Of a stretch of 64,000 nucleotides of DNA, positions 18,046 to 32,522 are shown piece by piece. The stretch lies in the NCBI GenBank assembly GCA_000165345.1, contig CM000429.1, forward strand, positions 640,001 to 704,000, read 5' to 3'. The notes below the pieces were generated by a model. It did no database searches. It worked only from the letters and a program-made list of their open reading frames with translations, and had not been told where the DNA came from. The first letter of the stretch is position 1. Each line of letters opens with the position of its first letter. The translations under genes were made by a program, and so were the position numbers.

Positions 18046-19425
18046 ATGATGAAAGACTCAGGTCTGGAAAAGCCATTACTTAATGGGAATGGATTTAAAA
18101 TATTTGCAAGCACAGAGAGTGTTCAGAAGAGGTTAATATATGCAATCTTTTTCTGTCTAGTCTTTACATTGATAGAGGTTGTTGTGGGTATATTATCAAA
18201 CTCACTAGCACTAATATCAGATGCATCTCACCTCATTTCAGATATATGTAGCTATTTCATTTCTCTGCTTGGTATCCACCTTTCCAAAAGAAAGGCCACA
18301 AACACAATGTCATTTGGTTATAACAGAGCTGAAATATTAGGGGCTTTGTTAAGCATTCTACTAATATGGTTTATGACAATCATGCTTGTCTATGAGGCTA
18401 TTCAGAGAATGTTATATCCTGTGAATGTGGATGGGTTTTCTATGTTTATTACCGCTATTTTTGGTACTTTGTCCAACTTATTTATTAGCTTTGTGTTATC
18501 TGTTCACAATCATGGAATAGGTTCAATTGGAGTAGATTGTAGTCAACACAATCATTCACATGAACATATGCATGAACACGACTGTAAGCAAGCTCAAACT
18601 CATTTTCAGGATGATTCACTGTATTGCAAAGATCAACAACTAGCAGAAAATCAAGAACAAATCGGAGGAATTAACACTACTTTACTTGAATACCACCATA
18701 GAAGCCAAATGAGAACTAAAGATTTAGATCATGAACTTAATAATTATACTAATTTAATGAACTCTCCAGTTATAAGAAGAGTCAATTCTGGTTTAAAAGA
18801 GTGTTCAGGACGTCAAAATGACTATTCTCATCTCCATAGTAGTAATCACTATACAAGTAAACATTCCTCTGAACAAGAAAGCTTAGCGCTTAAGTCTGCT
18901 TATATCCATGTTTTAGGGGATATTTTACAGAACATCGGAGTAATGATTGCTGGATTACTTATTTTGTACAATCCAGCATGGACAATCGCCGATCCTCTAT
19001 GTACTATTCTATTCTCCTTCTTTGTCCTCGCAACAACCATCAAAATCCTAAAAGATTCCGCCAATGTTCTAATGGAAGGGACCCCTATAGGAATTGATTG
19101 TGAATCCATTCAAAACGACTTTCTCAAGCTTTCTTCAGTGCTTGAAGTTCACGATCTACATGTTTGGTCTGTATCTGTTGGAGTTCCTGCATTATCTTGT
19201 CATATTGTCGTAGCATCAGAAGATAATGCTAGATTTACATTAAGATATGCAACGGATCTCTGTCAAAAAAAATATGGAATATTTCACACCACCATTCAAA
19301 TTGACTATTCTCCAAATAAAGCCACTTGTGAAACAATACATCATCAAAAATGTTTAGTTGGCTCTAATAACCAAAATAAAAGTGAAATTCACCAAATAAT
19401 TCATCCCGTTGACTATTCTGCTTAG
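18046..19425 (+). CDS. Cation diffusion facilitator (ZnT/Zrc1-type zinc transporter) with a His-rich loop
   Basis: TM helices with the HxxxD motif (SHLISDICS), a histidine-rich loop HNHGIGS...HNHSHEHMHEHD, and a C-terminal CDF cytoplasmic domain (HDLHVWS). Confidence 0.85.
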   Translation: MMKDSGLEKPLLNGNGFKIFASTESVQKRLIYAIFFCLVFTLIEVVVGILSNSLALISDASHLISDICSYFISLLGIHLSKRKATNTMSFGYNRAEILGALLSILLIWFMTIMLVYEAIQRMLYPVNVDGFSMFITAIFGTLSNLFISFVLSVHNHGIGSIGVDCSQHNHSHEHMHEHDCKQAQTHFQDDSLYCKDQQLAENQEQIGGINTTLLEYHHRSQMRTKDLDHELNNYTNLMNSPVIRRVNSGLKECSGRQNDYSHLHSSNHYTSKHSSEQESLALKSAYIHVLGDILQNIGVMIAGLLILYNPAWTIADPLCTILFSFFVLATTIKILKDSANVLMEGTPIGIDCESIQNDFLKLSSVLEVHDLHVWSVSVGVPALSCHIVVASEDNARFTLRYATDLCQKKYGIFHTTIQIDYSPNKATCETIHHQKCLVGSNNQNKSEIHQIIHPVDYSA

Positions 19426-19535: not shown

Positions 19536-20936
19536 CTATAAATTATCGGAACTATGTTCTCTGTATACTTGTTCTGCCAATTGAGATAGAGTTACACATT
19601 TAAATTTAGTGGATAATTCTGGAAGCATTAGCTTTAAAACTTCAATGTTAGCTGATCTGAAACTATTGGAAGGTATATGTAAGCAAACAATTGAACCAGG
19701 AGAAGCATTACTGGTACAAAACTGGGCAAGAAATTGGGGAAATCCCTGAAATGAAACATCATTTGGGTATACATCACACATTACAACGTTATATCCCCTA
19801 GATACTACCAGTTCGTATTGCTGTTTTGTAAGTCTCCCAAATGGTGGCCTAAACCACTTATATGTTCTCAATTGTTCATTTCGAGTTCCATCATTATAAA
19901 AAACTTCTGGAAGATCACTTAAAGTTTGTTGGGTTTTTAAAATTGTTGAAGCAGAAGTTGATGTAATCATAGAGGATGAGGATGAGGATGAGGATGAGGA
20001 TGAGGAAGAAGAAGAGGATGGTGATAATGTCATTTCTGAAGTTGAAGTTTGGCTTCCTGAAGAGCTTTTTTTACCATTCATGTACATTGGAGGAATAATA
20101 TATGAATTACTGGAAATATGTTCTGGACAATATTTACTAATTAAATGCTCACACTCTAACAAATGTTTGGTAAATACTGAAATTGGGAGCTTATGAGCAG
20201 GAATGTCCTTTGCTAAGTGGTTTCCTAATTCATGTCCTTCAGATATACATCTTTTTAAAAAATGGTCAGCATTTTTGATATATTTTGCATTCCTTTCTGT
20301 TACAAAAAAAGTGCATTTAATATTATAATCTGCAAGTAAAGTAAGAATATTCTCATTAGTTTCTGGATCCAAACCGGGAACATCATCTATTGTGAGAGCT
20401 ACAATCGGCTGTTCAGTTTCAAACCACCAAATAGCATCCATTAAGTAAGTACCAAAACTATTCATCATGGATCTTGAGATAAAAGACGACCTACCAAATC
20501 GTAAAAAAGTTCGAATTGCCCATCTAGTACCAGATTTATTCAAGGCCTCCCAAGCTGTTTTGCTGAACATATTTCCCGTCTTGCTCTTACTGGATGAAAT
20601 CGTGTTCATTATATATAATTGTGAATTTCTTCTATTTATCACTTCTTGAGGACCTAAAAAAATATTAATAAAATAAGGAATACATAAATAGATTAAAAGG
20701 GGAATTCAATTACTCTTCAACCAGAAGTTCCAGAATAACCCCAATTTTTTTTCTCTTGAAAACTTACCCAATTCATCATCTCCTAACCCACTAACCAAAC
20801 TATTGATTGCAGCATTTTCAAAGGCATCCTTCCCAACTATATCAGAATCGTCTGATAAATCAGATTGATAGGCATTTCCATCGGTCATCAAAAACCTTAA
20901 GATGCTTAACTTCTTCTTCTTTCTCCGTTTCCCCAT
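19536..20936 (-). CDS. Polysaccharide deacetylase (NodB/CE4 family), 2 exons approx 20768..20936 and 19536..20653
   Basis: NodB motifs ALTIDDVPG (TFDDGP-like) and GHELGNHL (HxxxxH), plus a poly-Ser run. Upstream mini-exon with ATG at 20934..20936 (MGKRRKKKK...GDDELG), donor TTGG|GTAAGT, 114-nt intron, acceptor tttttttag|GTCC. It joins the main ORF in frame. Track ORF 20706..20954 corresponds to exon 1. Confidence 0.75.
19963..20016 (-). repeat. Coding trinucleotide repeat (GAGGAT)n on the plus strand, equal to poly-Ser (S15+) in the deacetylase
   Basis: gaggatgaggatgaggatgaggatgaggatgaggaagaagaagaggatgg. Confidence 0.85.
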
Positions 20937-21182
20937 TTTATTTTTATTATTCAAATTTAATTAATGTTTTTTCAAAATACTCGTCACCAAGATTAACCGC
21001 CAAAAGTTGGCGCTCAGTTTTTTGCTGACATTAAGAGATACAAATAAATTCGAATAAAAAAAGATTTATAAGAACTCCGAGAAAGAAAAGAAAGGAGTAT
21101 TTTGAATTATTTTTCATTAGATGAGTGCAAAATACTGACCTGTGACTTTGAGTTTTGGAATTTGGAGTGAAACTCTTAAGAG

Positions 21183-32522
<11,340 letters not shown>

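What the first reader, a model, noticed from the sequence alone, without database searches (positions are those of the whole stretch)
19536..20936. NodB-family polysaccharide deacetylase with a spliced upstream N-terminal exon
A CE4 deacetylase (motifs TIDDVPG and HELGNH) typical of bacteria and fungi sits in a protist genome. The track ORF 20706..20954 is not a separate small gene: it has a perfect GTAAGT donor and a poly-T/AG acceptor that joins it in frame onto the deacetylase ORF, giving a basic, unusual N-terminus (MGKRRKKKK...). The enzyme could act on oocyst or cyst-wall polysaccharide. The gene also contains an expandable poly-Ser codon repeat.
Basis: partly seen in the sequence, partly recalled or inferred. 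Interest (0 to 1): 0.6.

Follow-up and report, generated by a model that had tools for sequence, protein, structure and literature searches.

The report
Two-exon Cryptosporidium NodB/CE4 deacetylase gene
This is a real two-exon Cryptosporidium gene for a sugar-deacetylase-type enzyme; sister-species annotations already show it this way, and it was inherited from the common ancestor shared with gregarines and chromerids, not recently taken from bacteria, so it is largely ordinary.

Summary
On the minus strand, ATG 20936, exon 1 to 20768, a 114-nt GTAAGT...T7AG intron (20767..20654) and exon 2 from 20653 to the stop at 19536 give a 428-aa protein. It has a Pfam NodB/CE4 domain and a confident NodB fold. 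Splicing is supported by comparison with other Cryptosporidium species. The phase-1 intron is present in all seven where exon 1 can be read, and five share the G|GTAAGT donor. The two exons lie in different frames in four species. Public models of C. meleagridis, chipmunk genotype I and C. felis already carry the same MGKRRKKKK...PQEV junction.

Three points need correcting:
- HELGNH is not the metal motif. The metal site is H202-LAK-D206, an Asp-His-Asp variant that marks a large subfamily.
- The gene is not a bacterial or fungal intruder. Its nearest relatives are an archigregarine and the chromerids Vitrella and Chromera, within a wider protist clade.
- No signal peptide or membrane segment exists in either N-terminal version, so an oocyst-wall role is unsupported.

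The poly-Ser tract is a genuine polymorphic microsatellite, with 12, 14 or 16 Ser among isolates. Substrate and location remain unknown. Interest is modest.

The parts
20768..20936 (-). Exon 1 (169 nt, 56 codons plus 1 base). It encodes MGKRRKKKK..., with net charge +8 over residues 1-16 and -9 over residues 17-57. The tail is predicted disordered.
   Evidence: Exon 1 is 169 nt with no indels in four species, and its substitutions are biased to third codon positions. In the model of the C. meleagridis ortholog, residues 1-53 have pLDDT below 50.
20654..20767 (-). Phase-1 spliceosomal intron of 114 nt, GTAAGT...TTTTTTTAG. It contains the stop codon (20706..20708) that ends the upstream ORF.
   Evidence: The intron is 112, 112, 108 and 85 nt in C. 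meleagridis, chipmunk genotype I, C. ubiquitum and C. felis, and 161 nt in C. ryanae from the conserved GTAAGT donor (83 nt in its deposited model). The donor is conserved in C. bovis, and C. muris has a 70-nt GTAATA intron at the equivalent place. The intron carries indels and is less conserved than the exons in all comparisons except C. meleagridis.
19536..20653 (-). Exon 2, ending at the TAG stop (19536..19538). It encodes residues 57 (split codon) to 428.
   Evidence: The sequence upstream of the internal ATG (..NRRNSQLYI) is conserved as protein in the eight orthologues whose models cover it, and more loosely in C. muris.
20607..20609 (-). Internal ATG (Met72), the start used by unspliced gene models. 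It is probably not the true start.
   Evidence: The C. canis model starts here, but its contig ends 135 nt upstream of that start.
20115..20417 (-). N-terminal half of the NodB/CE4 domain (residues 136-236). It holds motif 1 TIDD (20382..20393) and motif 2 H202-LAK-D206 (20205..20219).
   Evidence: Pfam match, PDB alignments, residue counts, pLDDT 91-98.
19869..20105 (-). Low-complexity, disordered insertion between CE4 motifs 2 and 3 (residues 240-318). Its length varies greatly across the genus.
   Evidence: pLDDT is below 50 in the models. In the alignment the insertion is only a few residues in C. muris and well over 100 residues in C. ryanae and C. bovis.
19971..20018 (-). Ser16 codon microsatellite (TCC TCT TCT TCT (TCCTCA)5 TCC TCT), polymorphic between isolates.
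   Evidence: TRF. Ten Logan genomic contigs have 12, 14 or 16 Ser while the rest of the gene is 100% identical.
19569..19865 (-). C-terminal half of the NodB/CE4 domain (residues 320-418). It holds motif 3 RPPFG (19836..19850), motif 4 YPND (19758..19769) and motif 5 LH382 (19677..19682).
20990..21050 (-). Conserved upstream block in the 246-bp divergent intergenic region shared with the UTP20 gene. It contains an E2F-like dyad, GCGCCAA..TTGGCGG. Coordinates are approximate.
   Evidence: The block is conserved in C. meleagridis, chipmunk genotype I, C. ubiquitum, C. felis and C. ryanae. TTTGGCGG occurs once in the window, which is not significant on its own.

Best explanation
A single two-exon gene (minus strand 20936..19536) encodes a 428-aa member of the CE4/NodB deacetylase superfamily. 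It belongs to a protist clade of a large subfamily in which the usual Asp-His-His metal site is Asp-His-Asp.

Shown:
- The intron, by comparison with other species.
- The NodB fold.
- Strict conservation of the catalytic base (D146), the metal ligands (D147, H202, D206), R325, D355 and the catalytic acid (H382).
- Conserved synteny across the genus.
- Nearest relatives in an archigregarine and in chromerids.

Inferred:
- It is an active, metal-dependent hydrolase that removes an acetyl group from a sugar. Water activated by D146 and the metal attacks the acetyl group, and H382 protonates the leaving group.
- It has no signal peptide or membrane segment, where bacterial and fungal relatives carry an N-terminal anchor. 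It therefore most likely works on the cytosolic side and not in the secretory pathway or oocyst wall.
- The disordered exon-1 tail (+8 polybasic, then acidic) probably acts in targeting, either to acidic membranes or to the nucleus.

The substrate is unknown. The poly-Ser tract lies in a disordered surface loop between the two halves of the barrel and varies freely as a microsatellite.
For: Gene structure:
- The splice is in frame.
- The G|GTAAGT donor lies at the same codon position in the window, C. meleagridis, chipmunk genotype I and C. ubiquitum. It is homologous in C. felis, C. ryanae and C. bovis, and C. muris has a phase-1 intron at the equivalent place.
- Exon 1 and exon 2 are in different frames in C. 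meleagridis, chipmunk genotype I, C. felis and C. ryanae, so they can only be joined by splicing.
- The read-through tails after the donor differ in frame and stop position.
- Exon 1 has no indels and its changes are biased to third positions. The intron has indels.
- Deposited models of three species carry the same junction.

Enzyme:
- Pfam PF01522.
- PDB matches by sequence.
- AF2 model with pLDDT 78 and pTM 0.75. The best PDB fold match is Bc1960 (4l1g), with target TM-score 0.84 and rmsd 2.1 A.
- D146, D147, H202, D206, R325, D355 and H382 are invariant in all 11 Cryptosporidium sequences and nearly so in relatives.

Topology:
- The maximum 19-residue Kyte-Doolittle hydropathy is 0.89 in this protein and 0.85-1.3 in its Cryptosporidium orthologues. 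Most bacterial and fungal relatives reach 1.9 or more at the N-terminus.
- The longest uncharged run in either N-terminus is 5 residues or fewer.

Ancestry:
-.
- Synteny UTP20 | deacetylase | cation-efflux transporter in all seven species whose contigs reach upstream, with the TIM gene beyond where the fetched locus extends that far.

Precedent for soluble intracellular CE4 enzymes in a eukaryote: A. fumigatus Cod4 and Cod7 (PMC6957412).
Against: - No transcript evidence could be reached with these tools. All isolate contigs retrieved are genomic.
- The second canonical metal-binding His is an Asp. No solved structure among the top matches has this, so activity and metal preference are untested.
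- CE4 pseudoenzymes exist, for example BA3943.
- The absence of a signal peptide rests on hydropathy only, not on a trained predictor. Apicomplexan secretory signals can be recessed.
- The polybasic tail is absent in C. muris and begins MP instead of MG in C. bovis and C. ryanae, so its role is not universal in the genus.
Confidence: 0.72

Rival explanations
1. The upstream ORF (20706..20954) is an independent small gene or a uORF, and the deacetylase is translated from the internal ATG at 20609 without splicing.
For: C. bovis is annotated this way, with a separate 102-aa gene at L007 1502-1810. Prokaryote-style gene calls on Logan contigs also split it into 76 aa plus 353-357 aa. In this window the intron length is a multiple of 3.
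Against: In four species the two exons are in different frames. The donor and acceptor are conserved, while the ORF tail after the donor is not. Protein conservation continues upstream of Met72. The C. bovis upstream ORF has the same GTAAGT donor and an AG acceptor that restore ...DEKEMIKKRNS.
Confidence: 0.04
2. The gene was acquired recently by Cryptosporidium through horizontal transfer from a bacterium or fungus.
For: The first word-indexed search returned only Cryptosporidium, bacteria and one fungus. The HxxxD subfamily is very large in bacteria and common in fungi.
Against: The exhaustive profile search finds higher-scoring relatives in Selenidium, Vitrella and Chromera (153-185 bits against about 108 for bacteria) and in other protists. 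The clade signatures R-P-P and H-x-P-S-x-x-FR are shared with these sequences and not with bacteria or fungi. The sister group of Cryptosporidium is free of bacteria and fungi in 499 of 500 NJ bootstraps. Synteny is conserved across the whole genus, including C. muris. An ancient bacterium-to-eukaryote transfer at the base of the protist clade is not excluded.
Confidence: 0.04
3. It is a secreted enzyme that deacetylates an oocyst-wall or glycocalyx polysaccharide.
For: Most characterised eukaryotic CE4 enzymes act on wall chitin. Bacterial and fungal relatives of this subfamily are anchored with the catalytic domain outside the cytoplasm, as inferred from a positively charged tail followed by a TM segment.
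Against: There is no signal peptide or TM segment in either N-terminal version. The segment corresponding to the anchor is hydrophilic in Cryptosporidium, Vitrella and Chromera. No paper in the searchable library links this enzyme to Cryptosporidium walls. To my knowledge, no chitin synthase is known in Cryptosporidium (not tested here).
Confidence: 0.12
4. It is a catalytically dead CE4 pseudoenzyme that only binds a glycan or a protein.
For: One canonical metal-binding His is replaced. CE4 pseudoenzymes such as BA3943 are documented and appear among the fold matches. A. fumigatus Cod7 showed no activity.
Against: The replacement residue is a metal-competent Asp that is invariant in Cryptosporidium, in 20 of 20 fungal sequences and in 28 of 29 bacterial sequences. 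The catalytic base, catalytic acid, Arg and motif-4 Asp are also invariant. That pattern fits a working active site.
Confidence: 0.13

Closest known systems
Bacillus cereus peptidoglycan GlcNAc deacetylases Bc1960 and Bc1974 (PDB 4l1g, 5o6y)
   Same: They are the best sequence and fold matches. The NodB barrel matches with target TM-score 0.84 and rmsd 2.1 A. Motifs 1, 3 and 5 align residue for residue.
   Different: Identity over the structural alignment is only about 18%. Their motif 2 is H-T-Y-S-H where this protein has H-L-A-K-D. They have no loop insertion comparable to the insert of about 80 residues here, no polybasic tail, and a bacterial wall substrate that Cryptosporidium does not have.
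NodB homology domain proteins of Vitrella brassicaformis (A0A0G4H6H2), Chromera velia (Cvel_27923) and Selenidium serpulae
   Same: They share the protist-type signatures: the W.aL...G.RW helix before the domain, HxxxD, R-P-P and H-x-P-S-x-x-FR. Vitrella and Chromera have no TM segment. They are the highest-scoring named non-Cryptosporidium hits.
   Different: Identity over trimmed columns is 39%. They lack the MGKRRKKKK tail and the poly-Ser insert. None is characterised, and the Selenidium sequence is probably partial.
Bacterial and fungal ~240-aa membrane-anchored 'chitin deacetylase family' proteins with HxxxD (for example P0011 Gemmatimonadetes, P0012 Acaryochloris, P0038 Collybia)
   Same: They share the Asp-His-Asp site, GHELGNH, YPxD and about 30-35% identity over the whole domain.
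   Different: They have an N-terminal TM anchor, RPGxG in place of RPPFG, and LHD in place of LHIPS..FR. None passes an NCBIfam equivalog cut-off, so their function is also unknown.
Aspergillus fumigatus Cod4 and Cod7 (PMC6957412)
   Same: They are eukaryotic CE4 proteins predicted to be soluble, with no signal peptide or TM. This is a precedent for intracellular CE4 enzymes.
   Different: They belong to the HpPgdA-like branch with a canonical His-His-Asp triad and are not close in sequence.
Encephalitozoon cuniculi ECU11_0510 (PDB 2vyo)
   Same: It is a CE4-fold protein of an intracellular parasite and a fold match at E 3.2e-6.
   Different: Identity is only 12%. From my own knowledge, it lacks detectable deacetylase activity and sits at the spore wall-membrane interface (not tested here).

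Membership tests
CE4 / NodB homology domain (Pfam PF01522) | Profile match above the curated threshold | tested here: met
   59 bits against a 23.1 cut-off, E 5.8e-16. Only the N-terminal half is matched, because the domain is split by the insert. The C-terminal half aligns to PDB chains.
CE4 / NodB homology domain (Pfam PF01522) | Distorted (beta/alpha) barrel NodB fold | tested here: met
   AF2 model with pLDDT 78 and pTM 0.75. There are 48 PDB matches at E<=1e-3; the 47 listed in the output are all CE4-type deacetylases or esterases. The best has target TM-score 0.84.
CE4 / NodB homology domain (Pfam PF01522) | Motif 1 T(F/I)DD: catalytic base Asp plus metal-binding Asp | tested here: met
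   T144-I-D146-D147, invariant in all aligned sequences.
CE4 / NodB homology domain (Pfam PF01522) | Motif 2 H(S/T)xxH: two metal-binding His | tested here: not met
   The motif here is H202-L-A-K-D206. The second His is Asp in 11 of 11 Cryptosporidium sequences and in 34 of 42 other relatives. Canonical enzymes have HTYSH or HSYSH at this place. This is a subfamily variant, not a loss of the site.
CE4 / NodB homology domain (Pfam PF01522) | Motif 3 RxP(Y/F) | tested here: met
   R325-P-P-F-G aligns to RPPYG of Bc1974.
CE4 / NodB homology domain (Pfam PF01522) | Motif 4 DxxD(W/Y) | tested here: inconclusive
   The sequence is Y-P-N-D355-V-S-F. D355 is invariant in Cryptosporidium and present in 39 of 42 relatives. 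However, the HMMER alignment to Bc1974 is shifted and gapped here, and the model coordinates could not be inspected.
CE4 / NodB homology domain (Pfam PF01522) | Motif 5 LxH / (I/V)xLH: catalytic acid His | tested here: met
   L381-H382. His is present in 11 of 11 Cryptosporidium sequences and 41 of 42 relatives.
CE4 / NodB homology domain (Pfam PF01522) | Metal-dependent deacetylase or esterase activity | not testable with these tools
   This needs recombinant protein, metal analysis and substrate assays.
HxxxD subfamily, bacterial/fungal membrane-anchored type | N-terminal TM anchor, RPGxG, LHD | tested here: not met
   The maximum KD19 is 0.89 with no TM segment. The protein has RPPFG and LHIPS.
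HxxxD subfamily, protist type (Vitrella, Chromera, Selenidium and others) | HxxxD plus R-(P/A)-P plus H-x-P-(S/E/D)-x-x-FR, and clustering with these sequences | tested here: met
   Motif table. The sister group is free of bacteria and fungi in 499 of 500 NJ bootstraps, and the closest partners are P0293 and Selenidium. Profile scores are 153-224 bits against about 108 for bacteria.
Spliceosomal GT-AG intron | GT donor, polypyrimidine-AG acceptor, and conserved position and phase across species | tested here: met
   The intron is phase 1 in all seven species where exon 1 can be read, with lengths of 70 to 161 nt.
Spliceosomal GT-AG intron | Removal of the intron in mature mRNA | not testable with these tools
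   No transcript-derived contig was retrievable. The spliced protein of this exact sequence is not in the collection.

The most novel reading that the evidence does not exclude
Cryptosporidium, gregarines and chromerids keep a CE4 enzyme with an Asp-His-Asp metal centre that has lost the membrane anchor of its bacterial and fungal relatives. It would therefore work on the cytosolic or nuclear side on a so far unrecognised acetylated glycan or glycoconjugate. In intestinal Cryptosporidium species the disordered polybasic exon-1 tail would be the targeting device. This would define an uncharacterised, biochemically distinct CE4 branch and an unknown step in apicomplexan sugar metabolism.
Probability: 0.25. 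Interest if true: 0.55.

Novelty: new member of a known kind. Interest (0 to 1): 0.3.

Why it matters
- Gene models. The two-exon model should replace the split or truncated models still deposited for C. bovis (two genes), C. ubiquitum (late start) and C. canis (contig end).
- Evolutionary history. The gene is a vertically inherited protist CE4, not a Cryptosporidium-specific bacterial acquisition. That removes it from lists of horizontal-transfer drug-target candidates argued on 'bacterial-type' grounds.
- Uncharacterised subfamily. The Asp-His-Asp CE4 subfamily has thousands of members in bacteria, fungi and protists and no characterised representative that I could find. A biochemical study of any member would be informative.
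- Typing marker. The (TCCTCA)n tract varies among isolates inside an otherwise invariant gene, so it could serve as a microsatellite marker.

Tried and rejected
- N-myristoylation of Gly2. Rejected because C. bovis and C. ryanae start MPK/MPR and residue 6 is Lys.
- Signal peptide in LSILRFLM. Rejected because the stretch is only 8 residues with an internal Arg, is preceded by 8 positive charges and is followed by an acidic run.
- First NJ tree with only bacteria, fungi and one canonical outgroup. Cryptosporidium fell next to the outgroup as a long branch and the result was uninformative. It resolved only after protist sequences were added.
- An earlier Biopython bootstrap run timed out.
- Finding the gene's C. 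parvum identifier. Aldolase is cgd1_3020, which I recalled and which is consistent with paper titles. TIM as cgd1_3040 is from my own recollection only. These place the window on chromosome 1, but cgd1_3050/3060/3070 could not be mapped to products from the held supplements. I therefore do not use those expression values.
- NCBIfam gave no family above its cut-off.
- The AFDB fold library was unavailable.
- The spliced protein could not be submitted for structure prediction. I modelled the exon-2 product and the full-length C. meleagridis ortholog instead.
- Literature searches for Cryptosporidium with polysaccharide, oligosaccharide or chitin deacetylase, or with NodB, found nothing relevant.
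- Whether Toxoplasma or Plasmodium lack the gene could not be established. Only 20 of the top 150 exhaustive hits could be named.
Full report
**1. What is in the sequence.**

The window is AT-rich (30% G+C). On the minus strand there is a 368-codon ORF at 19536..20642 and, upstream of it, an 82-codon ORF at 20706..20954. An ATG lies at 20936. A GTAAGT begins at 20767, and a T-rich tract ending in AG finishes at 20654. Removing these 114 nt joins the two ORFs in frame into a 1287-nt CDS of 428 codons, beginning MGKRRKKKKLSILRFLMTDG....

**2. Is the splice real?**

No transcript data were reachable, so I tested it by comparison. I fetched the orthologous loci of C. meleagridis, chipmunk genotype I, C. 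ubiquitum, C. felis, C. canis, C. ryanae, C. bovis and C. muris. The gene order UTP20, deacetylase, cation-efflux transporter is the same in the seven whose contigs reach upstream. The TIM gene follows where the fetched locus extends that far.

- The G|GTAAGT donor sits 169 nt after the ATG in four species. It is at the homologous place in C. felis (175 nt), C. ryanae (271 nt) and C. bovis.
- Intron lengths from this donor are 114, 112, 112, 108, 85 and 161 nt in the window, C. meleagridis, chipmunk genotype I, C. ubiquitum, C. felis and C. ryanae, all phase 1. The deposited C. ryanae model uses a downstream GTGAGT donor instead, giving an 83-nt intron.
- In C. meleagridis, chipmunk genotype I, C. 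felis and C. ryanae the two exons are in different reading frames. Only splicing can join them.
- The peptide that read-through past the donor would produce differs in frame and in stop position between species.
- Exon 1 is 169 nt without a single indel in four species, and about half of its substitutions fall at third codon positions. The intron accumulates indels.
- C. muris has a shorter, non-basic exon 1 (MGKYLS..., 28 codons) and a 70-nt intron at the same place.

The deposited proteins of C. meleagridis (422 aa), chipmunk genotype I (426 aa) and C. felis (479 aa) already contain the same N-terminus and the same ...(G/S)PQEV junction. The splice is therefore well supported but not new. 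Three deposited models are incomplete:
- C. bovis annotates exon 1 as a separate 102-aa gene.
- C. ubiquitum starts at an internal Met, although MGKKRKKKK lies in frame just upstream.
- C. canis is cut by a contig end.

**3. What the protein is.**

Pfam gives PF01522 at 59 bits against a cut-off of 23.1. The best solved relatives by sequence are the Bacillus cereus peptidoglycan deacetylases Bc1974 and Bc1960, at E about 1e-13.

An AlphaFold2 model of the exon-2 product has pLDDT 78 and pTM 0.75. It superposes on Bc1960 with a target TM-score of 0.84 at 2.1 A. The 47 listed matches at E of 1e-3 or better are all CE4-type enzymes. The two halves of the barrel, residues about 136-236 and 320-418, are separated by a disordered insert (pLDDT below 50) that contains the poly-Ser run. 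In the full-length model of the 95%-identical C. meleagridis ortholog, the exon-1 product (residues 1-53) is also disordered, and helices start at residue 58.

**4. Catalytic residues.**

Aligned to Bc1974, motif 1 is TIDD (D146 base, D147 metal ligand). Motif 3 is RPPFG, motif 5 is LH382, and a conserved Asp (D355, YPND) lies in the motif-4 region.

In this protein motif 2 reads H202-L-A-K-D206. The Asp at position 206 occurs in:
- 11 of 11 Cryptosporidium sequences;
- 20 of 20 fungal and 28 of 29 bacterial relatives sampled;
- nearly all protist relatives.

The more distant canonical sequences keep His at this position. H197 is replaced by N, M or S in fungi.

This is therefore an Asp-His-Asp variant of the CE4 metal site and the hallmark of a large subfamily. 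No NCBIfam equivalog claims that subfamily, and no top PDB entry represents it. The invariance of every catalytic position argues for an active enzyme, but this is inference.

**5. Where the gene comes from.**

The first word-indexed search found only Cryptosporidium, bacteria at about 40% local identity, and one mushroom. Follow-up searches showed the subfamily to be very large in bacteria and common in ascomycetes and basidiomycetes. With those sequences alone, the position of Cryptosporidium was unresolved, a long branch.

An exhaustive HMM search with a Cryptosporidium profile against 1.84 billion representatives changed the picture. Between the Cryptosporidium hit (672 bits) and the bacterial level (about 108 bits) lie these sequences:

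| Sequence | Source | Score (bits) |
|---|---|---|
| P0293 | unnamed eukaryote-like | 224 |
| P0294 | Vitrella brassicaformis | 185 |
| P0296 | Selenidium serpulae | 162 |
| P0297 | Chromera velia | 153 |

Below these lie a foraminiferan (Nonionella), a cryptophyte (Hemiselmis), MMETSP transcripts and a labyrinthulid (Hondaea).

These sequences share with Cryptosporidium the signatures R-P-P and H-x-P-(S/E)-x-x-FR, where bacteria, fungi and a dictyostelid have RPGxG and LHD. In an NJ analysis of 77 sequences over 222 columns:
- Cryptosporidium is monophyletic in 499 of 500 bootstraps;
- its sister group contains no bacterium or fungus in 499 of 500;
- the commonest partners are P0293 and Selenidium.

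The gene is therefore an old protist gene inherited through the apicomplexan-chromerid lineage. A much older transfer between bacteria and eukaryotes is not excluded. Whether coccidia and haemosporidia have lost the gene could not be determined here.

**6. Topology and likely mode of action.**

Most bacterial and fungal members have an N-terminal hydrophobic anchor, with 19-residue hydropathy between 1.9 and 3.0. In several fungal models a polybasic tail precedes it. By the positive-inside rule this would place the catalytic domain outside the cytoplasm.

In Cryptosporidium the maximum hydropathy is 0.85-1.3. The segment aligned with the anchor is hydrophilic (SKSKTGNMFSKTAWEALNKSG). Neither the spliced nor the internal-ATG N-terminus has an uncharged run longer than five residues. 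Vitrella and Chromera also lack a TM segment.

I therefore infer a protein that stays on the cytosolic side. The exon-1 tail, with charge +8 followed by -9, is a possible membrane-binding or nuclear-import signal. Soluble intracellular CE4 proteins have a fungal precedent in Cod4 and Cod7 (PMC6957412).

The oocyst-wall idea has no support from these data. No paper in the searchable library discusses this enzyme in Cryptosporidium. The substrate remains unknown.

**7. The poly-Ser repeat.**

The run is 16 Ser codons at 19971..20018, and TRF reports a period-6 array. Ten genomic contigs from public sequencing runs carry the identical 76-aa upstream ORF. They have 12, 14 or 16 Ser codons and differ by whole TCCTCA units. 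Every other base of the gene is identical to the window. Between species the whole insert varies from a few residues (C. muris) to well over 100 (C. ryanae, C. bovis). The tract is a true microsatellite in a structurally tolerant loop.

**8. Verdict.**

The protein is a CE4-fold enzyme of an uncharacterised Asp-His-Asp subfamily.

The remaining points of interest are the variant metal site, the loss of the membrane anchor in the alveolate members, and the unknown substrate. I rate interest at 0.3.

Noticed in passing
L007 1502-1810 and 2001-3404 (C. bovis); L003 553-600 (C. ubiquitum); L006 2001-3871 (C. ryanae): Several deposited gene models of the ortholog look wrong. C. bovis splits exon 1 off as a separate 102-aa gene. 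C. ubiquitum starts at Met17, although MGKKRKKKK lies in frame upstream. C. ryanae uses a downstream GTGAGT donor instead of the conserved GTAAGT, which adds about 26 residues.
   Followed up: partly
window about 20990..21050 (minus strand), between ATG 20936 (-) and the UTP20 ATG 21183 (+): A promoter-region block (TATCTCTTAATGTCA...AAAAACTGAGCGCCAA..TTGGCGGTTAATC...) is conserved from C. meleagridis to C. ryanae and contains an E2F-like dyad. C. muris has GGCGGGAA-type sites instead. TTTGGCGG occurs once in the window, which is not significant by itself.
   Followed up: partly
window 21183..32522 (+), the 3779-aa UTP20-like ORF: The neighbouring giant ORF contains a long DQ/NQ dipeptide repeat (...EQDQDQDQDQDQDQDQDQNQNQNQNQNQDQNHNQDQNQ...). 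This is probably another length-variable codon repeat.
   Followed up: no
proteins P0180, P0190, P0230, P0235, P0244, P0252 (fungal relatives): Several fungal members of the same CE4 subfamily carry a polybasic stretch (..KLRRRARRSRL..) just before their TM anchor. It superficially resembles the Cryptosporidium MGKRRKKKKLSILRFLM tail, which has no TM after it. Common origin or convergence was not resolved.
   Followed up: no
proteins P0298, P0311, P0357 (unnamed, GC-rich, from metagenomes or transcriptomes): Some protist-type relatives contain two tandem copies of the whole CE4 domain in one polypeptide.
   Followed up: no
window 18046..19425 (+): The convergent neighbour is a cation-efflux (CDF/ZnT-type) transporter with a His-rich loop (HNHSHEHMHEHD). 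Its stop lies only about 110 nt from the deacetylase stop, so the two 3' ends must be tightly packed.
   Followed up: no
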